Notes: generated by a model not told the origin, from the letters alone. A DNA stretch of 11,292 nt from an uncultured archaeon (GCA_964586355.1 CAZPGO010000054.1:1-11292); one strand, 5' to 3'. Shown: positions 314 through 11,276, counted from the first letter of the stretch. Translations and numbers: made by a program.

Positions 314-910
314 CTAAACCTTTTGCTTTCTTTTGTTTATTTTGTGCCTTATTATAAAAAATAAAATAATTGCTCCAAAAACCCCTAAGATCAAATAATT
401 TGCCCACTTTAAAATGCCTGTGGATATAGTTAAACCAAAACTATAACCTAAATAGGTTAAAAAGAACATCCAGATTCCAGATCCTAAAGCAGTATAAAAA
501 ATAAATTTGAAAAAGTTCATTTTGGAAAAACCAGCAGGAATAGAAACATATTGCCTTACAACTGGTATTAATCGACCTATAAAGGTAGCAAGAGATCCGT
601 GCTTTACAAAAAATTCTTCTGATCTTTTAAGATGCTTTTCTTTTATAAAAAAGATCTTTTTGTGTTTTAATAAATAACTTCTTCCCAAATACCTTCCAAT
701 ACCATAATTAACAATAGCACCAAAAACAGAGCCAAATATTCCAAATAGAACCACAGGTAAAAACTCTAAAGTACCAATAGACACTAAATACCCTGCAGGA
801 ATCATTATTGCTTCTGATGGGAAAGGTATAAATGAGCTTTCTATACTCATAAGTATAAAAATACTAAAATAACTTAGACTATGAAGTAAGATCTCTAAAA
901 TATGTAACAT
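314..910 (-). CDS. dedA: DedA-family (VTT/SNARE-associated domain) integral membrane protein
   Basis: 198-aa ORF with several hydrophobic helices. It carries DedA-type motifs: ES..IPFPSEAIMIPAGYL, GAIVNYGIGRYLGR, KHG....FIGRLIPVVRQYVSIPAG..KM. Confidence 0.85.
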   Translation of the reverse strand: MLHILEILLHSLSYFSIFILMSIESSFIPFPSEAIMIPAGYLVSIGTLEFLPVVLFGIFGSVFGAIVNYGIGRYLGRSYLLKHKKIFFIKEKHLKRSEEFFVKHGSLATFIGRLIPVVRQYVSIPAGFSKMNFFKFIFYTALGSGIWMFFLTYLGYSFGLTISTGILKWANYLILGVFGAIILFFIIRHKINKRKQKV

Positions 911-969: not shown

Positions 970-1761
970 CTATAAAAACAAAGAAAATAAGAAAAACAAC
1001 AACAAAGACAAAGGAAGCAAAATAATAACATAAAGAGCAGATTTTCTTGAACTGTTTTCTATTAATCCTAAATATATTCCTGATATTATGGAATATTCTA
1101 TTATGTAGATAATAGTACAAACATAAGAAATAACAAAAACATCACTAGCAATGGTAGTTAGAGAAACATTAGATCTAAGATTATTAATTAAAGAAATAAC
1201 AACACCTAAGATACCAGGAACAATTAATCCACCAGCAAAAAGAACAGTGTATTTTTGCATTAGTAACATTGATTCTCTTTCAGAGAGCAATTCCTTTGAC
1301 TCTATAAACTGTGTTGCTAGTTTTTTATAATCCTTATTACTTACAACACCAGTAGTAATAGATAACAACAAAAGATCCAAAAATCTTGTAAGTATTATAG
1401 ACTCATACTTTTTTTTTAGAATTTCAAAAACAGATCTAGGGTTATGACCGTTATTTATTTTATCATAAACAAAACTAAATTCCTCAGAAATTATATTATT
1501 TTTAGAAAACTTTAATTTTTTTAAAATGTTTTTTAGATCATTACTTTTTGGATAAGAAGAGATTATCATTAACTCATCTATTATTGCTATTTCTAGTTTT
1601 TGTTTCTTAATTAAGAATTTATATCTTTTAAAAATACCATTAAACAAAAAACCAAACACCAAAATACCAACAAATATTCCTAGAAACAAATAAATATTTA
1701 GATCTAGAATAAATAAAAATAATAACAAAGGCAATAACAAAAATAATCTTTTAGATTTCAT
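970..1761 (-). CDS. Type II secretion system F-domain-like membrane protein (TadC/FlaJ-like platform subunit, second of two)
   Basis: 263-aa ORF with N-terminal TM helices, a helical cytoplasmic segment of about 120 aa, then 3-4 C-terminal TM helices. This is the topology of a single T2SSF repeat. It starts 13 nt downstream of the preceding platform-like gene on the same strand. Sequence similarity is weak, so the call rests on topology and context. Confidence 0.55.
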   Translation of the reverse strand: MKSKRLFLLLPLLLFLFILDLNIYLFLGIFVGILVFGFLFNGIFKRYKFLIKKQKLEIAIIDELMIISSYPKSNDLKNILKKLKFSKNNIISEEFSFVYDKINNGHNPRSVFEILKKKYESIILTRFLDLLLLSITTGVVSNKDYKKLATQFIESKELLSERESMLLMQKYTVLFAGGLIVPGILGVVISLINNLRSNVSLTTIASDVFVISYVCTIIYIIEYSIISGIYLGLIENSSRKSALYVIILLPLSLLLFFLFSLFL

Positions 1762-1774
1762 ATTTTCTCAAATT

Positions 1775-2506
1775 TTACATATTTGCCCTCATAAACAAAA
1801 GCAAAAATAAATCAATTACTGGAAACAAAACAACAGTTACAAAAATAATAGTGGTTTTTGAGAGGGAGAACTCCAAAAAAGAAGCACCAATTAAAAAAAA
1901 CATTAAAAATATTGCAGGAACTACTGCTGAAATTACTATAAATATCAAACTAATAAAGTTTAACTTGGTAGAATATCTTTTAGAATCTGATTTTTGTTTC
2001 TCTATTATGGTTTTAGATAAGGTTCTTAGGTTATCTGATTTATTTGTACCACCACTAGTAACAGTATCTGTTATTTGATAAAGAGATCTACTTAGGTTTT
2101 CTGTCTTAATTGATAAAGAACTAAAAGCCTTTTCTAAAGAGTATCCTTTTTTATTAATCTTATCTAGTCCTTGCTTAAGTAACACCCCTAAATCTTTATT
2201 TTCAAAGATCTTAGACTCAATTTCTAAAGCAGACTTTAAAGAGATCCCTTTCTCTAAATTATTTGCAAGATTATTTAGAAAATATGGAAGGTCTTGATCT
2301 ATTCTTTTTACAAGATCTCTTTGTTTTATTATTTCTAAAAAATATATTATAAGAAAATAACTAATAGCAACAGAGAATAATAAAAAAAACAGTTGAAAAA
2401 AAGTAATCTCTAAAAATATGTTATTTAATAAAAAATATAATAACAAAAAAGAAAACTCAATAATTAAAAATAAAAAAAACTGTTTTTTAGTAAAGATCTG
2501 TTTCAT
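1775..2506 (-). CDS. Type II secretion system F-domain-like membrane protein (TadB/FlaJ-like platform subunit, first of two)
   Basis: 243-aa ORF with two N-terminal TM helices and a cytoplasmic helical domain (DLPYFLNNLANNLEKGISLKSALE...GYSLEKAF...LYQITDTVTSGG) resembling the T2SSF pattern, followed by C-terminal TM helices. Its ATG overlaps the ATPase stop codon (ATGA at 2503-2506), which implies translational coupling. Confidence 0.62.
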   Translation of the reverse strand: MKQIFTKKQFFLFLIIEFSFLLLYFLLNNIFLEITFFQLFFLLFSVAISYFLIIYFLEIIKQRDLVKRIDQDLPYFLNNLANNLEKGISLKSALEIESKIFENKDLGVLLKQGLDKINKKGYSLEKAFSSLSIKTENLSRSLYQITDTVTSGGTNKSDNLRTLSKTIIEKQKSDSKRYSTKLNFISLIFIVISAVVPAIFLMFFLIGASFLEFSLSKTTIIFVTVVLFPVIDLFLLLFMRANM

Positions 2507-4203
2507 ATTTTATTTCCTAGTTTAGAGATTTTAAATTTATTAATAAGTTTTAAGGAGTTATTTTTTTTAATTAAAATGTTTTTCTTAGAATCGTATTCAA
2601 ACAACTTATTTAGAAATATCTTTTGTTTAGTATTATCAAAAACAACTTCAGAGATCTCCATAATCTTTCTTCTTTCAATTATTTGATCTTTGTTATATTC
2701 ATTATATCTTCTTTGATTAATAATTAGATCAATGGAGCCAATATCTTGCTCCAAAACCCCATAAGATCTTAATCTTAAAATAGCATCATTAGAGGACTGT
2801 GCATGAATGGTGGTATATGTGCCTTTTGCTTGCCCACAAAGAATTGAGTCAATCAAAGACAATATCTCTTCTTTTGATCTAACTTCTCCAATAATCACTC
2901 GGTCTGGTCTCATTCTTAAAGTGTTTATTACTAAAGAATCAAGTAATATATTTTGATCCTTATTTACAATTAATGAAACCTTATGAGGATGAGAAATATT
3001 AATCTCCCTTACCTCCTCAACTAAAACCATTCTCTCCGACTTAGGAATAAATTCTAAAAGAGCATTTAGGGTTGTTGTTTTTCCTGAACCTGTGTTACCA
3101 CAAACAAATATATTTGAATCTGTTAAAAAAGCTTTTTTTAAAAAATTAAAAACTTCTTTAGTAATTATCTTTTGGGATAATAGATCAGTAACAGTAAACG
3201 GGACAACAGGAAATTTTCTAATAGTAATGGATATAGAATCAGTTATGGGATTTATAACAGCATTAAGTCTAGTGTGGTTTTTTAGAGTTATGTCTAACAA
3301 AGGATTTTTTAAAGTTATATATTTACTAGACTCCCAGCTCATTTTGTTAATTAGATCCTTTAAACAGTCTAAGGATTTATAGACAATATTTGTTTTTAAC
3401 CAGCCAAAGTTTTTATGATAAACAAAAGCGGATTCATCTATATCAAAGATTACAATCTCCTCTAGATCATTATCCTTTAGCATTAAAGACAAAGGACCAA
3501 GATCAGATAAAATATTTACAGCACACTCTAAAATATACTTAAACTGATCATCATCAAGCTCAATAGAATTATTAAAACAATAATTTACAAGTATTTCATC
3601 AAGATCTTTTTTTATACTTTCAGTTATTTCCATATTATCTATTTCTTTGTTTGTGTGATCTGTTTTATAATTATCTAAAATGTCGTTTATTAGTTCTATT
3701 TCTGATAAAGAAAGCTTTTGATAATTAACAATATATCTCTTTTCATTATTTTTGTCAATTATAACAGAAGAATCTAGAGAGAGAGTTTTTTCTGTTTTTA
3801 TATCTTCTACTATAAAACCAAAATACTTAGACAAAATCTCTTTTTCTTTTATTTCATTTTCATCAACAAGTTCAAGCATTTCTTTATTATTATAAAAACA
3901 AGGCATCAGAAAGGAATTATTGAAACAGAGATCACATTTTTTTGCTTTATTTTTAATTAAAACAATAGCATTGTTCTTACAAGCTTTTACACAAGCCCCA
4001 CAACCAACACATTTTTTTGAATCTATGGTAACTATTCCTGTTTTTGAATCTTTTTTTATAGCTCCATATTTACAAGCCTTAAGACAAAGAGGGTCTTGAC
4101 AATTAACACAGTTAAAGACATTAATATGCTTCTCTTTAAAATTATAGGGACAATTTAGGAAAAGATCTTTCTCTGGTTTTTCTGATTTTAGTTTAAGATA
4201 CAT
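2503..4203 (-). CDS. Type II/IV secretion-system ATPase (FlaI/PilB/TadA-VirB11 superfamily) with an N-terminal 4Fe-4S ferredoxin-type domain
   Basis: 566-aa ORF. Walker A is GNTGSGKTTT (nt 3070-3099). The Asp/Walker B box is RMRPDRVIIGEVRSKE. The His box is GTYTTIHAQS. The N-terminal ~105 aa contain 12 Cys arranged as ferredoxin-type cluster motifs. Confidence 0.9.
   Translation of the reverse strand: MYLKLKSEKPEKDLFLNCPYNFKEKHINVFNCVNCQDPLCLKACKYGAIKKDSKTGIVTIDSKKCVGCGACVKACKNNAIVLIKNKAKKCDLCFNNSFLMPCFYNNKEMLELVDENEIKEKEILSKYFGFIVEDIKTEKTLSLDSSVIIDKNNEKRYIVNYQKLSLSEIELINDILDNYKTDHTNKEIDNMEITESIKKDLDEILVNYCFNNSIELDDDQFKYILECAVNILSDLGPLSLMLKDNDLEEIVIFDIDESAFVYHKNFGWLKTNIVYKSLDCLKDLINKMSWESSKYITLKNPLLDITLKNHTRLNAVINPITDSISITIRKFPVVPFTVTDLLSQKIITKEVFNFLKKAFLTDSNIFVCGNTGSGKTTTLNALLEFIPKSERMVLVEEVREINISHPHKVSLIVNKDQNILLDSLVINTLRMRPDRVIIGEVRSKEEILSLIDSILCGQAKGTYTTIHAQSSNDAILRLRSYGVLEQDIGSIDLIINQRRYNEYNKDQIIERRKIMEISEVVFDNTKQKIFLNKLFEYDSKKNILIKKNNSLKLINKFKISKLGNKI
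3898..4152 (-). other. Fe-S cluster-binding (4Fe-4S dicluster, CooF/DmsB-like) domain within the ATPase ORF
   Basis: Cys residues fall at aa 18, 32, 35, 40, 44, 65, 68, 71, 75, 90, 93 and 102. The motifs are CvnCqdplClkaC (C-x2-C-x4-C-x3-C), CvgCgaCvkaC (C-x2-C-x2-C-x3-C) and KCDLC-x8-C, the last resembling the KCDLC motif of CooF/DmsB/HybA-type subunits. Confidence 0.7.
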
Positions 4204-4335
4204 ACCAATAAATATAATATTTATATAAAAAAGCCCTATATGTGATTTTTTTGTGTATTTTAGAGAATATTTGGTAAAAGGTTAAATTTATTAAAATCTT
4301 TCATCTTTATATATTTAATAAAAGAAAGAAAAAAT
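4204..4335. promoter_or_regulatory. Divergent intergenic region with candidate archaeal TATA boxes for the ATPase operon (-) and the Prs-like operon (+)
   Basis: TTTATATAAATA-like element on the minus strand at about 4217-4228, roughly 15-25 nt upstream of the ATG at 4203. CTTTATATATTT at about 4303-4314, roughly 25-30 nt upstream of the ATG at 4336. No clear Shine-Dalgarno sequence is present, consistent with leaderless or short-leader archaeal transcripts. These are AT-rich motifs in AT-rich DNA, so specificity is low. Confidence 0.3.
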
Positions 4336-5274: not shown

Positions 5275-6327
5275 ATGATAACAGATAAAAAAATGCAAAA
5301 AGTTATTGGAGAGTTAATTACTCTTGCTAATAATGAGATAAAACTCTCAAGAGATCAACAACTAAATGTTATAGATCTAATTATAGAAAGAAGAGCACAA
5401 GATCAACCACAACTCTCTATTGAAAAAATACTTAGAGATCTAACAGCAAATATTCAAAGATCAGAATCACCAATGGCATATATTAGTCTTTTAAATAAAT
5501 ATGATCTGATTGAACAAAAGGAGCAAAAAATATTTGCACAAAAAATAAAATTAATAGCAGATATTGAACTTAAACTTTCTGAACAAAAACACATTAATCC
5601 AGCAGAATATGAAAGATATATAGAACCTTTGTTTAAATTACCTTTAAATCAAAAACTAAAACTATTTAATCAATCAGAAATTAAGAAAAAACTAAATAAA
5701 GCAACTACGATTTTAAGTAGATATAGAACATTAGTAAACATGTATTTAAAAAGCTCAGGAGAAAAAAAAGAAAAAATAAATTATTTATTAGAAAAAACAA
5801 GGCACAAAATAAAAACAGAAGTGCATCAAATATACTCTGAAATTAGTACAGATATAAAAAATCAGCAAATAAGAAACTCTAGAAAAGAAAGATCTGGGTT
5901 TAGAATGCTAGCAAAAAATGCAGAAACTAAAAAAGAGATAGATTATATTATGCTTCTTGGAGGTAATAAAGAAAATGCAAGATCATGGGAAAATGGATGT
6001 ATAGATTTTTCTAAAATACCTAGCACAAGAGAACTTTACATAGATCTATTAATAAAAAGAATAAAAGATAAAAAAACATTAACAGAAAGTGAATTTTATA
6101 GTTTTATAAACATCTTAACCAACACCATAGTAGAAAAAAGCCCAAACAAAAATAAGAATGCTATTAGAGAGAAACTTATAAAAGATCTATCCCATAATAG
6201 ATGCCTAGATCATATACTATTAAAATTAAAAAATCTAGGAGTCCTAAAAAAAGAAACACATAAAAAATTCTTTGAGGAACAAAAAGAAAGAATAGCAAAA
6301 AACATCAAATCTAAAAGAAGAAAATGA
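5275..6327 (+). CDS. Hypothetical lysine-rich, predicted all-helical protein (ORFan)
   Basis: 350-aa uninterrupted ORF starting 15 nt after the Prs-like stop. An AAGGA Shine-Dalgarno-like element lies about 8 nt upstream of the ATG. It has a very basic C-terminal tail (KNIKSKRRK) and no motif I recognise. Confidence 0.6.
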   Translation: MITDKKMQKVIGELITLANNEIKLSRDQQLNVIDLIIERRAQDQPQLSIEKILRDLTANIQRSESPMAYISLLNKYDLIEQKEQKIFAQKIKLIADIELKLSEQKHINPAEYERYIEPLFKLPLNQKLKLFNQSEIKKKLNKATTILSRYRTLVNMYLKSSGEKKEKINYLLEKTRHKIKTEVHQIYSEISTDIKNQQIRNSRKERSGFRMLAKNAETKKEIDYIMLLGGNKENARSWENGCIDFSKIPSTRELYIDLLIKRIKDKKTLTESEFYSFINILTNTIVEKSPNKNKNAIREKLIKDLSHNRCLDHILLKLKNLGVLKKETHKKFFEEQKERIAKNIKSKRRK

Positions 6328-7568: not shown

Positions 7569-8645
7569 TTAATTATATTTTCCAAACATAAGATCATTAT
7601 AATCCAAAATTTCTTGTTCTGATAAAAGATCAGCAAACAACTTAATATCATAAATCACTCCATTAAAAAAATAAGGAGAACTATAATCTCTTTGACCGAT
7701 TGTAAAAGAACTAGATACATAAATATATGGATTACGTGACAAATAACTTTTTTCTTCTCCATTTACAAACATTCTAATTTCTGGTATAGATCTATCAAAT
7801 AACACAGCAACAGTATAAAATTCATTATTATTTAATGATTCTGAAATATAATATTCATTACTTGAACTATAAGATGTTGATAACCTACCAGAAGCATCTA
7901 ATTTAATGGATGATTGTGACTGAAAAGAGGAAAATCCAAAACCATATATTATTGTTTGTAAAGAACTATAATCAGTTTTAAAAGAAATTAAAACACTAGA
8001 TACAGAATTAGCAGGAAGATGATTTCTTGAAAAACCACCATCAGAAAAAAAGATTCCTTTTTCTTGGGTTTCTGGATTTCCTGTTAATAAAGAAAGATTG
8101 TAATTATTTTTACTTTTATCAACTAAAACATTATCTACAACCGTCATATCATAATCTGCAACCAGACCGTTTTTTCCAAAACAATAATTATCAGACCTAT
8201 AATTATTTGTTTTTATTAAAATTGAAAAATAGGTTTTTTCTTCATTAAATAATTGTAAATAAAAATTACTTTCTGGTAAACAAATTAAATTAAAAGAAAC
8301 AAAAGCACCTGGATCTAAAATTATTTCGTTCTTAAAATATAATGGTTGATTTCCAAAAATATAGTTACTATCAGTAACAAGATTATAACCAATAAACTTA
8401 ATTGATTCTGTACTATGTATATTTCTAATAATTACTAAATTACTTTCAGATAATTGCTTAATATCAGTTAAAACTAAAAAAGAAGAAAGATCACTTTCCG
8501 TAAAAGTAGATGTAAGATCTATTTGGTTTAAGTTCTCTTTTGCAAAGCTTGAGCTCCAAGTTAAGACAACGGTGATCAATATAACACTTACAACTATTAG
8601 TAAGATTGTGGCGATCAATAGAGAAACAGATCTTCTAATAAACAT
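7569..8645 (-). CDS. Archaeal type IV pilin-like protein (class III signal peptide, Pilin_N/DUF1628-type N-terminus) with a C-terminal LamG/ConA-like lectin domain
   Basis: 358 aa. The N-terminus is MFIRRSV-SLLIATILLIVVSVILITVVLTW. The C-terminal ~190 aa match the Laminin_G_3 pattern, ending FTIGQRDYSSPYFFNGVIYDIKLFADLLSEQEILDY. Its start lies 2 nt after the stop of the upstream paralog, indicating an operon. Confidence 0.8.
   Translation of the reverse strand: MFIRRSVSLLIATILLIVVSVILITVVLTWSSSFAKENLNQIDLTSTFTESDLSSFLVLTDIKQLSESNLVIIRNIHSTESIKFIGYNLVTDSNYIFGNQPLYFKNEIILDPGAFVSFNLICLPESNFYLQLFNEEKTYFSILIKTNNYRSDNYCFGKNGLVADYDMTVVDNVLVDKSKNNYNLSLLTGNPETQEKGIFFSDGGFSRNHLPANSVSSVLISFKTDYSSLQTIIYGFGFSSFQSQSSIKLDASGRLSTSYSSSNEYYISESLNNNEFYTVAVLFDRSIPEIRMFVNGEEKSYLSRNPYIYVSSSFTIGQRDYSSPYFFNGVIYDIKLFADLLSEQEILDYNDLMFGKYN
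8537..8627. repeat. Pilin 5' cassette, copy A (nucleotide-level repeat)
   Basis: CTTTTGCAAAGCTTGAGCTCCAAGTTAAGACAACGGTGATCAATATAACA... aligns to copy C with 1 mismatch over the first ~50 nt and about 85% identity over ~90 nt. It encodes the signal-peptide/TM helix. Confidence 0.85.
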
Positions 8646-8647
8646 TA

Positions 8648-10102
8648 TTAAACAATCTCCGGAGTCAGTTTAATATTTGCAATTCTATCACCAGGATCTA
8701 AATCAATAACAAAATAATTACTATTAATATAACTACTATTTGTCACAGGATTAGAACCAGAAGCTAAAGAAACAAGAGTCCAATCATTATATCCAGGAGT
8801 TGATATAAAAAAAGGCCCTTTTATAAAAAAAGTAAACTTATTTGATTTATCTCTTGTAATTTTAATATTATACCAAAATTTATCTTTAATAAAATTGCTA
8901 TTAGTAACCATTAAAGCATTACCACCTGGATCATTTGACATTGTAAAATGTGTCACTTTCGTGTCTCTATAAATAAATAACATATACCCTTGAAAAGAAC
9001 TATATGCACTAGTTTTGTTAGAAATAATATGAATACGAGGATTTTGATCAGCACCCTTATACAGATCAAATTCCCAAGTACCATATGCTTGAGGACTTAT
9101 TAATGCTTTTCTTCCGTTAGTAAGATTTTCAAAATATTTAGTACCATCAGTAATTGTTTCTAATGGATCTATCTCTTTAATAGAATCAATTCTAACAACA
9201 ACATTAGCTGTTGTTGACTGACGTAACTGAAGTTGAAAATAAGATGATGATTCTCTATCACACCAAATGGTTAAAGTGTGTTTACCTATTTCTTTTATTG
9301 GTACTCCACTATCATCTAAATAATCAAAACTTAAACTAAATCTTTGAAAATATAAATCATCATTAGCAAGAATTCCAGTTGTGCTTAACGTCTCCAGCTC
9401 TATTTTATAAAGTCTACCAAAAGTATAAGGAATTAAACCTGAAGACATCATAGTTAATGTACCGCCATCTGATGTTAATGACCATGTTTTTTCTGAAATT
9501 TTAACTATATTACCAGTAGTATTTATTACTGAATCTAAATAAATATTTTCTTTTGTTTCTTTATTAAATTCATCTATTTTATAACTACCATTTATGGTTT
9601 CAAACTCCCATAAAGGAACATGAAAACTATTACATTTTGTAAACAATCTGTTTCCTTGTGGATTGATCTCTAAAGTATATGGCTGATCATTAATATCTAT
9701 TAACTCTAAAAAAAATTTATTCTCTGGAACACAGACTAAAGAAATTGGATTTATGGAAGATCTGTTAAATAAAATATTGTTTTCTAGGGTTCTATAACTA
9801 TTTAGCCAAAAATAGTCTGAGTTATAATCATTTGTTAAGATCTTGTAACCTTTAATTTCTAGATCACTATCAGAAATATTTCTTAGAACAAGTTGATTAC
9901 CAACTAAAGAAATTTGCCAAAAGAAATCTCTCTTTGAAATGTTTTTTGAAGACTCTAGAAGATCTGTGGCTTGGTTGGTTGTGTTTTCGGTAAAGCCTTT
10001 GCCCCAAGTTAAAACTACAGTGATCAATATAATACTTACAACTATTATTAAGATTGTGGCGATCAATGGGGAGAGAGATCTTTTATAATTTATTTTAACC
10101 AT
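8648..10102 (-). CDS. Archaeal type IV pilin-like protein with two predicted jelly-roll (CBM-like and LamG/ConA-like) C-terminal domains
   Basis: 484 aa. The N-terminus is MVKINYKRSL-SPLIATILIIVVSIILITVVLTW. It shares the pilin-proximal module with its neighbours. The C-terminal ~320 aa are beta-rich, with lectin/CBM-like endings (ANVVVRIDSIKEI; GTWEFDLYKG...WYNIKITRD...FTFFIKG...). The C-terminal domain assignment is tentative. Confidence 0.72.
   Translation of the reverse strand: MVKINYKRSLSPLIATILIIVVSIILITVVLTWGKGFTENTTNQATDLLESSKNISKRDFFWQISLVGNQLVLRNISDSDLEIKGYKILTNDYNSDYFWLNSYRTLENNILFNRSSINPISLVCVPENKFFLELIDINDQPYTLEINPQGNRLFTKCNSFHVPLWEFETINGSYKIDEFNKETKENIYLDSVINTTGNIVKISEKTWSLTSDGGTLTMMSSGLIPYTFGRLYKIELETLSTTGILANDDLYFQRFSLSFDYLDDSGVPIKEIGKHTLTIWCDRESSSYFQLQLRQSTTANVVVRIDSIKEIDPLETITDGTKYFENLTNGRKALISPQAYGTWEFDLYKGADQNPRIHIISNKTSAYSSFQGYMLFIYRDTKVTHFTMSNDPGGNALMVTNSNFIKDKFWYNIKITRDKSNKFTFFIKGPFFISTPGYNDWTLVSLASGSNPVTNSSYINSNYFVIDLDPGDRIANIKLTPEIV
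10004..10080. repeat. Pilin 5' cassette, copy B
   Basis: CCAAGTTAAAACTACAGTGATCAATATAATACTTACAACTATTATTAAGATTGTGGCGATCAATGGGGAGAGAGATC is about 85-90% identical to copy A by hand alignment. Confidence 0.8.
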
Positions 10103-10154: not shown

Positions 10155-11276
10155 TTACTCAATTAAACTTTTTGTATTATTCCAAAGTGTTGTTATTTCA
10201 TCTATTGTTAATTTATTATCATAAACTTTTAACATCATCATTTTTCCTCTAAATCCACTGGTGTTACTAGAACTAAGTCCAAAAATAGTTGTCTCTGTTT
10301 CTGTATCTATAGGAATTCCACTTGATTGATCTGTGTGAGTACATGTCGGTGTATTTGTGCTATCTCCAGAATAAAAATTAACATATCCATCAACATCTCT
10401 TGTAATTGCAAAAAACTGTGTTGTTGTTGGATTTACATAATTTGAATTACTTAAAGCCGTTGTTAAACCATCCGATCTTATTCTCATTCTATTTGTTGTG
10501 CTGCCATCTATAAAAAAAGCACCATTATCTAAAAGATAAGTGCCAAGAGAAATATCATTATAATTAGCCCAAAAAACAATCGTTATTGAGCCTGTTCCAA
10601 TAAAATTAGAACTTGCTTTTAATTTATAACCACCATTCGTTACTTGTGCATAATTTTTTCTATTTTCAACAATGTTTGTTGATTCTACTCCTAGCAGTGT
10701 TAATATCTTTCCAGTTCTTTCTATTTGTGTTCCAGAGGTTACATCGTAATCAAAAAGCAATCTACATCTCAAAGGGTCTACATCATTTATAGATCTTGCA
10801 AGAACTTGTGTTCTTACATATGTGTTTTGATCTGTTAACAAATCTATGAAAAAAGATTCTTCTGGGTAACAATCTATTTGTAAGACTTCTGCTTGCTTAG
10901 ATCCTATTATTAATGGTTCTTCTAAATAATAGAGCTTATTTTCAAAATAATCATAAAGATAATGATCAAGAGAAGAAATTATTTTATAACCAACAACATT
11001 TAGATCTTTTGAAGAATGGTTATTGGAAATTAAAATGTTTTGTGCTGATAAAGAGCTGTTAGTGATTAAACCGATGAAATCTTTATTGTTAATTTTTGAT
11101 GTTTGGGCAGTTGATAAATTATCTTTTGCAAAGTTTGAGCTCCAAGTTAAGACAACGGTGATCAATATAACAGAAACAACTATTAGTAAAATGGTCGCTA
11201 TTAAAGGAGAGACATATTTATATTTTTTAAACAAAAATTTTTTTCTTAATTTAGATCTGTTTTTTTTGGATAACAT
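10155..11276 (-). CDS. Archaeal type IV pilin-like protein with a C-terminal LamG/ConA-like lectin domain and an unusually long basic leader
   Basis: 373 aa. The leader MLSKKNRSKLRKKFLFKKYKYV precedes SPLIATILLIVVSVILITVVLTW. The C-terminal domain follows the Laminin_G_3 pattern, ending TTIFGLSSSNTSGFRGKMMMLKVYDNKLTIDEITTLW. A TTG at 11234 is a possible alternative start. Confidence 0.8.
   Translation of the reverse strand: MLSKKNRSKLRKKFLFKKYKYVSPLIATILLIVVSVILITVVLTWSSNFAKDNLSTAQTSKINNKDFIGLITNSSLSAQNILISNNHSSKDLNVVGYKIISSLDHYLYDYFENKLYYLEEPLIIGSKQAEVLQIDCYPEESFFIDLLTDQNTYVRTQVLARSINDVDPLRCRLLFDYDVTSGTQIERTGKILTLLGVESTNIVENRKNYAQVTNGGYKLKASSNFIGTGSITIVFWANYNDISLGTYLLDNGAFFIDGSTTNRMRIRSDGLTTALSNSNYVNPTTTQFFAITRDVDGYVNFYSGDSTNTPTCTHTDQSSGIPIDTETETTIFGLSSSNTSGFRGKMMMLKVYDNKLTIDEITTLWNNTKSLIE
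11123..11213. repeat. Pilin 5' cassette, copy C
   Basis: CTTTTGCAAAGTTTGAGCTCCAAGTTAAGACAACGGTGATCAATATAACA... is near-identical to copy A. Confidence 0.85.

What the first reader, a model, noticed from the sequence alone, without database searches (positions are those of the whole stretch)
2503..4203. Pilus/secretion ATPase fused to an N-terminal ferredoxin-type multi-cluster Fe-S domain
One uninterrupted 566-aa ORF combines a CooF/DmsB-like Cys-rich domain with a canonical FlaI/PilB/VirB11-type ATPase. The Fe-S domain has 12 Cys in the first 102 aa, with motifs C-x2-C-x4-C-x3-C, C-x2-C-x2-C-x3-C and KCDLC-x8-C. The ATPase has Walker A GNTGSGKTTT, the box PDRVIIGEVR and the His box TIHA. Bacterial GspE/PilB ATPases are known to carry a tetracysteine zinc site. 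A complete ferredoxin-like dicluster module at the N-terminus is, as far as I know, not a described architecture for archaeal pilus or archaellum ATPases. It suggests that pilus assembly or secretion is gated by redox or electron-carrier state, which would be plausible for an anaerobic symbiont sensing host or environment status. That interpretation is inference.
Basis: partly seen in the sequence, partly recalled or inferred. Interest (0 to 1): 0.7.

Follow-up and report, generated by a model that had tools for sequence, protein, structure and literature searches.

The report
Iron-sulfur module fused to pilus ATPase
A tiny-genome (DPANN-type) archaeon carries a pilus-building motor ATPase with a three-cluster iron-sulfur 'wire' domain fused to its front end; the fusion is real and common in this lineage, I found no paper describing it, and it suggests that pilus assembly is tied to the cell's redox state.

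Summary
Window 2503-4203 (minus strand) is one uninterrupted 566-aa ORF. Residues 1-105 pass Pfam's curated cut-offs for 4Fe-4S ferredoxin families. Residues ~190-566 are a FlaI/GspE/CpaF-type secretion ATPase with intact catalytic motifs.

- **Not an artefact.** The identical gene occurs in three separate assemblies. More than 150 homologues keep the fusion.
- **Not a plain dicluster ferredoxin.** It is a CooF/HycB/DmsB-type polyferredoxin. The ancestral form has 16 Cys (four clusters), the query clade 12 (three) and a nested subclade 8 (two). Cysteines are lost only as complete four-ligand sets. This is strong indirect evidence that they bind [4Fe-4S] clusters.
- **A detachable subunit.** In two lineages the module is a separate 125-aa gene, translationally coupled to the ATPase gene.
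- **Context.** The ATPase is followed by two platform (T2SSF) genes. Three lectin-domain pilin-like genes lie nearby. This is a type IV pilus locus.
- **Novelty.** Databases name these proteins only generically. Two dedicated archaeal pilus censuses (2016, 2026) do not describe the fusion.
- **Closest precedent.** Sulfolobus AapX is a separate Fe-S protein that is essential for pilus assembly and has no known function.

Redox gating is plausible but untested.

The parts
2503..4203 (-). Whole gene: 566-aa fusion of an Fe-S module and a type IV pilus assembly ATPase
   Evidence: Single ORF. Pfam Fer4 families plus T2SSE, all above cut-off. AlphaFold2 mean pLDDT 90, pTM 0.71. Identical gene in three assemblies.
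3889..4203 (-). Residues 1-105: CooF/HycB/DmsB-type polyferredoxin module with three predicted [4Fe-4S] sites. Ligand sets by analogy to NarH: C18+C90+C93+C102 (FS2-like), C32+C35+C40+C75 (FS3-like), C44+C65+C68+C71 (FS4-like).
   Evidence: Fer4_11, Fer4_7 and Fer4 above cut-off. The reported match ranges place query 32-94 on NarH 184-248; residue-level alignments to PsrB and EbdB were also shown. All 12 Cys are invariant or at least 90% conserved in 54 homologues. Cys are lost only in complete four-ligand sets. Module modelled alone: pLDDT 92; best folds are WOR5-beta, EbdB, FdnH, PsrB and HycB3/4.
3628..3888 (-). Residues 106-192: junction (conserved 'LGW'-type motif, G129 nearly invariant) plus a small beta/alpha N0 sub-domain and a flexible hinge (181-190)
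   Evidence: Secondary structure and a pLDDT dip to 58 at 181-190. G129 is at least 90% conserved. The natural split point of the two-gene versions lies just after this motif. This is the least conserved region, with 26% mean pairwise identity.
3199..3627 (-). Residues 193-335: N-terminal domain of the secretion ATPase (helical bundle plus beta sheet), FlaI/afGspE-like
   Evidence: phmmer against PDB hits 2OAP and 4II7. Foldseek hits 4IHQ, 4II7, 2OAP and CpaF.
2503..3198 (-). Residues 336-566 plus stop: catalytic RecA-like C-terminal domain. Walker A GNTGSGKTTT at residues 369-378 (nt 3070-3099), Walker B/Asp-box region PDRVIIGEVR (433-442), His box TIHA (465-468).
   Evidence: T2SSE hit over residues 319-511. 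Motif positions. G372, S373, K375, T376, E396, E400, R430-D434, E440 and H467 are invariant in 54 homologues.
1775..2506 (-). Platform protein, first half (243 aa, one T2SSF domain). Its ATG overlaps the ATPase stop (ATGA).
   Evidence: PF00482 at 37.9 bits. Overlap read directly. The order ATPase-T2SSF-T2SSF recurs in the other loci examined; in L009 and L012 one or both downstream genes have no Pfam record.
970..1761 (-). Platform protein, second half (263 aa, weak T2SSF)
   Evidence: PF00482 at 24.6 bits, just under the 25.2 cut-off. Same position as the second T2SSF gene in related loci.
314..910 (-). VTT/DedA-family membrane protein directly downstream. It may belong to the same transcription unit.
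   Evidence: PF09335 at 89.7 bits. The same gene follows the two T2SSF genes in L011, at 58% ATPase identity.
4218..4232 (-). TATA-like A/T box (TTTTTTATATAAATA) centred about 22 nt upstream of the ATG. This would suggest a leaderless archaeal transcript, but the evidence is weak in a 26% GC genome.
   Evidence: Read directly from the sequence. No statistical support.
7569..8645 (-). Pilin-like protein (358 aa): N-terminal class-III-signal-peptide-like hydrophobic helix plus a concanavalin-A-like lectin domain
   Evidence: Laminin_G_3 at 43.6 bits. Pilin_N is below cut-off, 14.7 bits, but N-terminal.
8648..10102 (-). Pilin-like protein (484 aa)
   Evidence: Pilin_N at 16.7 bits, below cut-off. 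NCBIfam UpsA pilin N-terminus at E = 9e-4.
10155..11276 (-). Pilin-like protein (373 aa) with a lectin-type domain
   Evidence: Laminin_G_3 at 29.3 bits, above cut-off. Pilin_N at 18.6 bits, below cut-off.

Best explanation
SHOWN. The gene encodes the assembly ATPase of a type IV pilus machine of an AT-rich DPANN-type archaeon. The nearest named relatives are Iainarchaeota/Diapherotrites. The machine has a two-gene platform, like the Epd/Tad-type 'system 1'. The ATPase N-terminus carries a CooF/HycB/DmsB-type polyferredoxin module. In this clade the module keeps three of the ancestral four [4Fe-4S] sites. The module is an old, selectively maintained accessory subunit of this ATPase family. It is usually fused, but in some lineages it is a separate, translationally coupled 125-aa protein.

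INFERRED. The module sits on the N-terminal domain of each subunit of the hexameric motor. In related ATPases, regulators and partner proteins act at this position. There it makes ATPase activity, or docking to the platform, depend on the state of its clusters: present and reduced, or oxidised or lost. Pilus assembly and adhesion would then be coupled to the low-potential electron pool (ferredoxin/flavin), to anoxia and to iron supply. In this reading it is the fused counterpart of stand-alone Fe-S accessory proteins such as Sulfolobus AapX.
For: - **Identity and reality of the fusion:**
- **Family-wide conservation:** more than 150 fused proteins (98 with at least 15 Cys, 72 with 11-14, 16 with 7-10) from Diapherotrites/Iainarchaeum, Micrarchaeota and unclassified archaeal MAGs, some on contigs of 0.5-1.2 Mb.
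- **Cluster binding:** all 12 Cys are invariant or nearly invariant. Cys are lost only in ligand-complete sets, 16 to 12 to 8. The same set (FS1-equivalent) was lost independently in a second lineage, P0058/P0065.
- **Purifying selection on the module:** 43% mean pairwise identity (35% without the Cys columns), between the values for the ATPase NTD and CTD.
- **Split-gene versions:** L015/L016 and L017/L018. In L017 the junction is an ATGA overlap. Fe-S proteins are 84% identical and ATPases 72% identical between the two lineages.
- **Competent ATPase:** catalytic motifs are invariant. The fold matches FlaI, afGspE and CpaF.
- **Pilus context:**
- **Possible redox partner:** a Flavin_Reduct gene is conserved 2-4 kb downstream in five divergent 16-Cys loci.
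Against: - No biochemical data exist. Fe-S occupancy is inferred.
- All structural relatives of the module are electron conduits inside oxidoreductases. Classical Fe-S sensors use one cluster, not three or four.
- No conserved redox-active acceptor is visible in the ATPase. Its other Cys (209, 227, 280, 368, 456) are not conserved.
- The 8-Cys subclade lacks the middle cluster of the chain, so a continuous wire is not universally needed.
- The window and its clade lack the Flavin_Reduct, PAC2 and DUF192 neighbours.
- Homology to AapX could not be tested because no sequence was available.
- The geometry of the module relative to the hexamer is not known. No PAE or coordinates were available.
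Confidence: 0.5

Rival explanations
1. Structural scaffold only. The clusters (or just the Cys-metal sites) stabilise a compact N-terminal domain that helps hexamer formation or docking to the platform or membrane. There is no redox signalling. This would be analogous to the tetracysteine Zn site of bacterial GspE/PilB.
For: Whole clusters can be lost stepwise (16 to 12 to 8 Cys) while the domain and its length are kept. This includes loss of the middle cluster in P0045/P0046, which would break an electron wire. No conserved partner oxidoreductase is present in the window's clade. The 2026 census proposes that N-terminal extensions of archaeal TFF ATPases are interaction interfaces.
Against: Keeping 12-16 Fe per subunit (72-96 per hexamer) is costly for a purely structural role in a reduced genome. 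The canonical low-potential ferredoxin motifs are strictly kept. The stand-alone version is more conserved than its ATPase, 84% against 72%.
Confidence: 0.22
2. Working electron-transfer subunit. The polyferredoxin carries electrons between a cytoplasmic donor (ferredoxin, or the neighbouring flavoredoxin-type Flavin_Reduct protein) and an unidentified acceptor at the pilus base. The ATPase serves as anchor or as an ATP-dependent gate.
For: All sequence and fold relatives are multi-cluster electron-transfer subunits: WOR5-beta, AOR polyferredoxin, FdnH, PsrB, HycB3/4 and NarH. Flavin_Reduct is conserved next to PAC2 downstream of the locus in L006, L007, L008, L010 and L015, and riboflavin genes sit at the same place in L012. 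AapX homologues in other species carry an FAD-binding domain (bioRxiv 10.1101/2023.08.07.552258).
Against: No acceptor is evident. The T2SSF platform proteins have no redox cofactor motifs. The clade of the window has lost the terminal cluster and the Flavin_Reduct neighbour. The 8-Cys forms interrupt the chain. The PAC2-Flavin_Reduct adjacency may be plain synteny: PAC2 also follows an ATPase with no detected Fe-S module in L023.
Confidence: 0.15
3. Artefact: two adjacent genes (a small ferredoxin and an ATPase) joined by a sequencing or assembly error, or a chance Cys-rich stretch.
For: Two-gene versions do exist in some lineages. One 710-bp contig has an in-frame TAG at the junction.
Against: The identical fused ORF occurs in three assemblies. 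The 90% cluster has 10 members, nine of them 562-566 aa and one a 440-aa partial. More than 150 fused homologues are known, with a conserved junction. The AlphaFold2 model is confident across the junction. The Cys enrichment has P = 1.3e-13.
Confidence: 0.02

Closest known systems
Archaeal secretion ATPases FlaI/ArlI (PDB 4IHQ, 4II7) and A. fulgidus GspE (2OAP)
   Same: Two-domain fold (NTD plus RecA-like CTD). Walker A, Walker B, Asp box and His box are all present. These are the best Foldseek and phmmer matches, at about 24% identity over about 435-470 columns.
   Different: None of these has an Fe-S module. The query falls far below the FlaI equivalog cut-off (153.7 against 550 bits). Its locus has no archaellin or FlaF/G/H genes.
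Bacterial Tad pilus ATPase CpaF/TadA (PDB 8RKD, 9E24) and archaeal Epd-type 'system 1' loci
   Same: The platform is split into two single-T2SSF genes, as with TadB/TadC. CpaF is a strong fold match. The 2026 census defines system 1 by two platform genes and lists DPANN among its hosts.
   Different: TIGR03819 TadA scores 147.6 bits against a cut-off of 373. CpaF has no Fe-S domain. The pilin-like proteins here are large lectin-domain proteins, not short Flp/Epd pilins.
AapX of the Sulfolobus acidocaldarius Aap pilus (Saci_2316, arCOG07320)
   Same: An Fe-S protein genetically tied to an archaeal type IV pilus ATPase and platform. It is required for pilus assembly and its function is unknown. 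The split Fe-S gene plus ATPase versions found here have the same logic.
   Different: AapX is a separate protein. It is membrane-anchored in S. acidocaldarius and FAD-domain-bearing in other species. It is probably from a different Fe-S family (my recollection, not tested). Homology to the module here could not be tested because I had no sequence.
CooF/HycB/DmsB-type four-cluster ferredoxin subunits (Pfam Fer4_11), e.g. WOR5-beta 6X6U_B, FdnH 1KQF_B, PsrB 2VPW_B, HycB3/4 7QV7, NarH 1Q16_B
   Same: Four Cys groups with the same spacing. The fold match has probability 1.0 at 30-42% identity. Query Cys map one-to-one onto NarH groups II-IV.
   Different: Those proteins are subunits of oxidoreductases. 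Here the module is attached to a motor ATPase, and in the query clade it lacks the FS1-equivalent cluster.
N-terminal regulatory domains of bacterial PilB/MshE (MshEN, c-di-GMP binding) and the GspE N1 domain (binds GspL)
   Same: An extra domain at the N-terminus of the same ATPase superfamily serves as a regulatory or docking input. This rests on established knowledge and was not tested here.
   Different: Unrelated folds and ligands. No Fe-S is involved.
Tetracysteine Zn site of bacterial GspE/PilB C-terminal domain
   Same: A Cys-metal site in a secretion ATPase.
   Different: It is absent here. The CTD has only isolated, non-conserved Cys at 368 and 456. The Cys-rich part is N-terminal and ferredoxin-like.

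Membership tests
Type II/IV secretion-system ATPase superfamily (Pfam T2SSE, PF00437) | Profile match above the curated cut-off | tested here: met
   113.3 bits against a cut-off of 24.9, residues 319-511.
Type II/IV secretion-system ATPase superfamily (Pfam T2SSE, PF00437) | Walker A, Asp box/Walker B and His box present and conserved | tested here: met
   GNTGSGKTTT at 369, PDRVIIGEVR at 433, TIHA at 465. The key residues are invariant in 54 homologues.
Type II/IV secretion-system ATPase superfamily (Pfam T2SSE, PF00437) | Two-domain NTD plus RecA-like CTD fold | tested here: met
   Foldseek E = 1e-31 to FlaI and afGspE, TM-score 0.59-0.68.
Archaellum motor ATPase FlaI/ArlI (NCBIfam NF058587, equivalog) | Score above the equivalog cut-off | tested here: not met
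   153.7 bits against a cut-off of 550.
Archaellum motor ATPase FlaI/ArlI (NCBIfam NF058587, equivalog) | Locus with archaellins and FlaF/G/H/J | tested here: not met
   The window and 19-kb related loci contain none of these. The platform is two short T2SSF genes.
TadA/CpaF family (TIGR03819) | Score above the family cut-off | tested here: not met
   147.6 bits against a cut-off of 373.15. The fold similarity to CpaF is nevertheless high.
4Fe-4S multi-cluster ferredoxin domain, CooF/DmsB type (Pfam Fer4_11, PF13247) | Profile match above the curated cut-off | tested here: met
   33.7 bits against a cut-off of 26.2, residues 31-95. Fer4_7, Fer4, Fer4_9 and Fer4_2 are also above their cut-offs.
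4Fe-4S multi-cluster ferredoxin domain, CooF/DmsB type (Pfam Fer4_11, PF13247) | Four Cys groups giving four complete ligand sets | tested here: not met
   The query has three complete sets (12 Cys). Group I Cys 1-3 and group IV Cys 4 are missing. The full 16-Cys pattern is present in more distant family members.
4Fe-4S multi-cluster ferredoxin domain, CooF/DmsB type (Pfam Fer4_11, PF13247) | Fold of a polyferredoxin subunit | tested here: met
   Model pLDDT 92. Foldseek probability 1.0 to WOR5-beta, EbdB, FdnH, PsrB, HycB and NarH.
4Fe-4S multi-cluster ferredoxin domain, CooF/DmsB type (Pfam Fer4_11, PF13247) | Actual binding of [4Fe-4S] clusters | not testable with these tools
   Only indirect evidence: ligands are conserved and are lost in complete sets.
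AapX-type Fe-S accessory protein of archaeal pili (arCOG07320) | Sequence or profile homology to AapX | not tested
   No AapX sequence was obtainable with the tools. I know it only from the papers.
AapX-type Fe-S accessory protein of archaeal pili (arCOG07320) | Fe-S protein encoded with, and acting with, the pilus ATPase and platform | tested here: met
   It is fused to the ATPase here. It is a separate, translationally coupled gene in L015-L018.
AapX-type Fe-S accessory protein of archaeal pili (arCOG07320) | Required for pilus assembly | not testable with these tools
   Needs genetics or biochemistry.
Archaeal type IV pilus locus, two-platform-gene type ('system 1'/Epd-like) | ATPase followed by two platform genes | tested here: met
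   1775-2506 is T2SSF at 37.9 bits. 970-1761 is T2SSF at 24.6 bits, marginally below cut-off. The ATPase stop and next start overlap as ATGA. The order is conserved in related loci.
Archaeal type IV pilus locus, two-platform-gene type ('system 1'/Epd-like) | [quoted passage not shown] | tested here: inconclusive
   Three ORFs have an N-terminal Pilin_N match below cut-off (14.7-18.6 bits against 25.2), and one has a UpsA-N hit at E = 9e-4.
Archaeal type IV pilus locus, two-platform-gene type ('system 1'/Epd-like) | Dedicated prepilin peptidase | tested here: not met
   None is present in the window. A Peptidase_A24 gene is present in the related locus L013.
GspE/PilB tetracysteine Zn motif | Four conserved Cys in the C-terminal domain | tested here: not met
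   The only CTD Cys are 368 and 456, and neither is conserved.

The most novel reading that the evidence does not exclude
The polyferredoxin is a working electron conduit on a hexameric pilus motor. The machine would then be gated, or even partly driven, by low-potential electron flow from ferredoxin or from the neighbouring flavoredoxin-type protein. The fusion and split-gene pair would also reveal what the enigmatic, essential AapX-type Fe-S proteins of archaeal pili do: act directly on the assembly ATPase. That would define a general 'redox checkpoint' of archaeal type IV filament assembly.
Probability: 0.15. Interest if true: 0.85.

Novelty: new variant of a known kind. Interest (0 to 1): 0.55.

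Why it matters
Type IV pili are the main adhesion and host-contact organelles of DPANN archaea. How archaea regulate pilus assembly is largely unknown.

An iron-sulfur module is physically joined to the motor ATPase. It is kept across a large clade and can also exist as a separate subunit. This gives a concrete, testable handle on redox, oxygen or iron control of pilus assembly.

It also offers a hypothesis for the 14-year-old puzzle of why Sulfolobus needs the Fe-S protein AapX to make pili: the target would be the ATPase. The stepwise 4-to-3-to-2 cluster series is a natural mutational series for dissecting which clusters matter.

Tried and rejected
- **GTDB genome scan.** A single-protein query returned one relative (Iainarchaeum MAG, 56% identity) and one unrelated ferredoxin hit.
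- **Metagenome scan with A1.** Only L019 of 80 loci carried the module. This shows the module is rare in the superfamily, but it was not useful for neighbourhood statistics.
- **Representative-library search with the Fe-S profile.** Dominated by polyferredoxins and NrfC-NrfD proteins. Eighteen of the top 150 were single N-terminal matches longer than 460 aa; of the 17 new single-stretch candidates scanned, 15 carry T2SSE.
- **NJ tree of the ATPase core.** It resolves the query's 12-Cys clade, but fused and unfused forms interleave at depth. I draw no conclusion on the number of gains and losses. Some 'unfused' sequences may be split forms.
- **Model coordinates and PAE.** Not available, so inter-cluster distances and docking of the module on the hexamer could not be measured.
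- **Homology to AapX.** Could not be tested because I had no sequence.
- **Conductive-pilus idea.** Considered and rejected as unsupported. The platform proteins show no cofactor motifs, and the module is cytoplasmic.
- **Zn-finger reading of the Cys.** Rejected because of the canonical ferredoxin motif spacing and the fold matches.
- **TATA-like box upstream.** Noted but given little weight in a 26% GC genome.


Full report
**1. The observation**

The window has one uninterrupted 566-aa ORF at 2503..4203.
- Cys at 18, 32, 35, 40, 44, 65, 68, 71, 75, 90, 93 and 102.
- GNTGSGKTTT at 369, PDRVIIGEVR at 433 and TIHA at 465.

Twelve Cys in 102 residues compares with 14 in 2929 residues for the other ORFs of the window (binomial P = 1.3e-13).

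Pfam confirms both halves above curated cut-offs:

| Family | Score (bits) | Cut-off |
|---|---|---|
| T2SSE | 113.3 | 24.9 |
| Fer4_11 | 33.7 | 26.2 |
| Fer4_7 | 33.7 | 27 |
| Fer4 | 30.8 | 21.1 |

The fusion is not an artefact:
- The identical protein, with identical neighbours, occurs in three JGI assemblies.
- Its 90% cluster has ten members from four sources, nine of them 562-566 aa and one a 440-aa partial.
- The junction is conserved and confidently modelled.

**2. What the ATPase half is**

By sequence, the closest solved structures are A. fulgidus GspE (2OAP, E = 1e-38), FlaI (4II7, 4IHQ), VirB11 and CpaF. A high-confidence AlphaFold2 model (pLDDT 90, pTM 0.71) matches FlaI, afGspE and CpaF over about 435-470 columns. 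No solved structure covers the first ~100 residues together with the ATPase.

The catalytic residues are invariant in 54 homologues, so the ATPase looks competent.

It is not a member of the curated FlaI, VirB11 or TadA families. Its scores are 153.7 against a cut-off of 550 for FlaI, 154.3 against 250 for VirB11 and 147.6 against 373 for TadA.

The context identifies a type IV pilus machine:
- The ATPase stop overlaps (ATGA) the start of a 243-aa T2SSF gene, followed by a second T2SSF-like gene and a VTT/DedA gene.
- Three pilin-like ORFs lie 3.3 kb upstream on the same strand. Each has an N-terminal class-III-like hydrophobic segment, and two carry concanavalin-A-like lectin domains.
- A platform split into two genes is the hallmark of the Epd/Tad-like 'system 1', which the 2026 census reports from methanogens, Thermococcales and DPANN.

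The nearest named homologues are MAG proteins of 'Candidatus Iainarchaeum/ainarchaeum', Diapherotrites and, further out, Micrarchaeota. With 22-30% GC, the window most likely comes from an Iainarchaeota-like DPANN archaeon. This is an inference; no phylogenetic marker was tested.

**3. What the Cys-rich half is**

It is not a simple dicluster ferredoxin. Its sequence relatives in the PDB are the four-cluster beta subunits and polyferredoxins: MvhB, EbdB, PsrB, FdnH, HycB4, WOR5-beta and NarH. The module modelled alone (pLDDT 92) finds the same set by fold at probability 1.0: WOR5-beta, EbdB, the AOR polyferredoxin, FdnH, PsrB, HycB3/4, PcrB, NxrB and NarH.

An alignment of the family shows three forms.

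*Ancestral four-group pattern (16 Cys)* in the more distant members:
- Group I: CxxCxxCxxxCP
- Group II: CxxCx4-7CxxxC
- Group III: CxxCxxCxxxC(P)
- Group IV: CxxCx3-8CxxxC(P)

*The query clade (12 Cys).* It lacks group I Cys 1-3 and group IV Cys 4.

*A nested subclade (8 Cys).* P0045/P0046, with 12 member sequences from four sources, additionally lacks group II Cys 1-3 and group III Cys 4.

In DmsB/NarH-type proteins these are exactly the four ligands of one cluster each: FS1 and FS3 of NarH. That assignment is established knowledge of PDB 1Q16. The match ranges place query 32-94 on NarH 184-248, which puts query Cys onto the NarH group II-IV ligands one-to-one. The query is therefore predicted to hold three clusters:

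| Cluster (NarH name) | Query ligands |
|---|---|
| FS2-like | C18, C90, C93, C102 |
| FS3-like | C32, C35, C40, C75 |
| FS4-like | C44, C65, C68, C71 |

Ligands disappear only in complete sets. The same FS1 set was lost independently in P0058/P0065. This is the strongest computational evidence available that the Cys really bind [4Fe-4S] clusters. The module is under purifying selection, with 43% mean pairwise identity. That lies between the ATPase NTD (33-50%) and CTD (57%).

**4. How widespread it is**

| Cys in first 125 aa | Proteins |
|---|---|
| 15 or more | 98 |
| 11-14 | 72 |
| 7-10 | 16 |
| fewer than 7 | 33 |

Several sit on contigs of 0.5-1.2 Mb. In the 50%-identity representative library, 18 of the top 150 hits to the Fe-S profile are single N-terminal matches in proteins longer than 460 aa; of the 17 new single-stretch candidates scanned with Pfam, 15 carry T2SSE.

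By contrast, of 80 loci retrieved from metagenomes with the conserved Walker motifs, only one (L019) had the module. The architecture is therefore rare in the superfamily but dominant in this DPANN clade.

**5. The module also exists as a separate subunit**

In two lineages, each seen in two assemblies, the module is a 125-aa, 16-Cys gene:
- GCA_053996675.1 and SRR32938005 (L015/L016)
- GCA_027077895.1 and SRR13853571 (L017/L018)

It ends just after the conserved 'ILGW' junction motif. In L017 its stop overlaps the ATG of a 422-aa ATPase (ATGA). In L015 the two genes overlap by 19 nt. Between the two lineages the Fe-S proteins are 84% identical and the ATPases 72% identical.

This fusion/fission pair is classical evidence that the two parts work together physically. 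It also shows that the module is functional as a stand-alone subunit.

**6. Neighbourhood**

The order ATPase, T2SSF, T2SSF recurs in the loci examined; in L009 and L012 one or both downstream genes have no Pfam record.

The 16-Cys loci share a longer order: DUF192, Fe-S-ATPase, two T2SSF genes, PAC2, Flavin_Reduct. This is complete in L006, L007, L008, L010 and L015. L019 has DUF192 and PAC2. L012 has PAC2 followed by riboflavin genes. PAC2 identities across these loci are only 35-65%.

None of the three genes lies within 8-10 kb in the window, L001, L003-5, L009 or L011. In other words, the clade that lost the terminal cluster also lacks the flavoprotein neighbour. The sample is small and not independent, and PAC2 also follows an ATPase with no detected Fe-S module in L023. 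I treat this as a lead, not a finding.

**7. Mechanism**

Shown: a competent pilus ATPase carries, or binds, a polyferredoxin module at its N-terminus.

Inferred: in this superfamily the N-terminus is where inputs act. Examples from established knowledge are MshEN/c-di-GMP in PilB/MshE and the GspE N1-GspL contact. The 2026 census also proposes that N-terminal extensions are interfaces for accessory components.

The most economical reading is that the state of the clusters conditions ATPase activity or docking. This would link pilus assembly to the low-potential electron pool, to anoxia or to iron supply (confidence about 0.5).

Rivals:
- *Purely structural role (0.22).* Favoured by the tolerated loss of the middle cluster in the 8-Cys forms.
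- *True electron-transfer role with a flavoprotein partner (0.15).* Favoured by the fact that every relative of the module is an electron conduit, and by the Flavin_Reduct neighbour.
- *Artefact (0.02).*

**8. Comparison with what is known, and novelty**

The 2016 census of archaeal T4P contains no mention of ferredoxin or Fe-S. Of the DPANN-related terms I searched for in it, only 'Nanoarchaeota' appears. The 2026 census notes variable N-terminal domains but mentions Fe-S only for AapX. Five further full-text searches found nothing.

AapX is the closest functional precedent. It is an Fe-S protein encoded in the aap operon, required for Aap pilus assembly, of unknown function and location. Its homologues in other species carry an FAD-binding domain. 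Whether AapX is homologous to this module could not be tested.

Databases already hold many of these proteins under generic or composite automatic names. The architecture is therefore catalogued but, as far as I could find, not described or interpreted.

I rate it a new variant of a known kind: a type IV pilus ATPase with an undescribed accessory module. Interest is moderate (0.55). It would be higher if the link to AapX or a redox-gating function were demonstrated.

Noticed in passing
L015:6001-7637, L016 (same coordinates), L017:4627-6269, L018:2504-4146: Natural split versions: a 125-aa, 16-Cys Fe-S gene is translationally coupled to a 422-425-aa ATPase gene. L017 has an ATGA overlap and L015 a 19-nt overlap. 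Fe-S proteins are 84% identical and ATPases 72% identical between the two lineages.
   Followed up: yes
L006, L007, L008, L010, L015 (also L012, L013, L019): Conserved gene order in 16-Cys loci: DUF192, Fe-S-ATPase, two T2SSF genes, PAC2, then Flavin_Reduct (a flavoredoxin-like protein). In L012, riboflavin synthase and kinase genes replace Flavin_Reduct. None of these genes lies near the 12-Cys or 8-Cys loci, including the window.
   Followed up: partly
L014:598-600: A 710-bp contig has an in-frame TAG exactly at the Fe-S/ATPase junction (..EEILGRRVL*). The reading frame then continues with ATPase-like sequence. This could be an error, a pseudogene, a split or read-through; it was not resolved.
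   Followed up: partly
window 7569-8645, 8648-10102, 10155-11276 (minus strand): Three tandem pilin-like genes share a near-identical N-terminal hydrophobic segment (..SPLIATILLIVVSVILITVVLTW..). They have large C-terminal parts, and two carry concanavalin-A-like lectin domains. They are candidate adhesive pilins.
   Followed up: partly
L007:931-4915, L008:2670-6680, L015:1-3909, L017:1-2525: A second pilus locus lies directly upstream of the Fe-S-ATPase locus. It has an unfused PilB3-type ATPase (626-653 aa) and two T2SSF genes. These genomes therefore carry two adjacent type IV filament machines.
   Followed up: no
L006:1-7637, L010:1-7618, L011:1-6411, L012:1-6199: Giant ORFs (3170-4101 aa) lie immediately upstream of the ATPase operon. 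In L006 the ORF has Laminin_G_3 and DUF2341 domains. Further ORFs of more than 1400 aa lie downstream in several loci. They are probably surface adhesins.
   Followed up: no
P0350, P0369: A further variant: ATPases of about 430 aa whose N-terminus is a minimal 2x(CxxCxxCxxxCP) ferredoxin followed by the same 'VGW' junction.
   Followed up: no
window 5275-6327 (+): A 350-aa Lys/Glu-rich ORF with no significant Pfam hit lies between the PRPP synthase gene and the PCC-domain gene. The PRPP synthase and PCC genes are conserved upstream of the ATPase in L009 and L011; this ORF is conserved only in L003-L005.
   Followed up: no
L037, L059, L071, L089, L096: DUF192 genes also occur about 2-4 kb from distant ATPases that lack the Fe-S module. 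DUF192 may therefore be a general accessory gene of this kind of archaeal pilus locus.
   Followed up: no
precomputed Pfam column: Many of these ATPases, fused and unfused, carry PF27713 (UCP018868). This recent Pfam family is not in the local Pfam copy, and its position and meaning were not determined.
   Followed up: no
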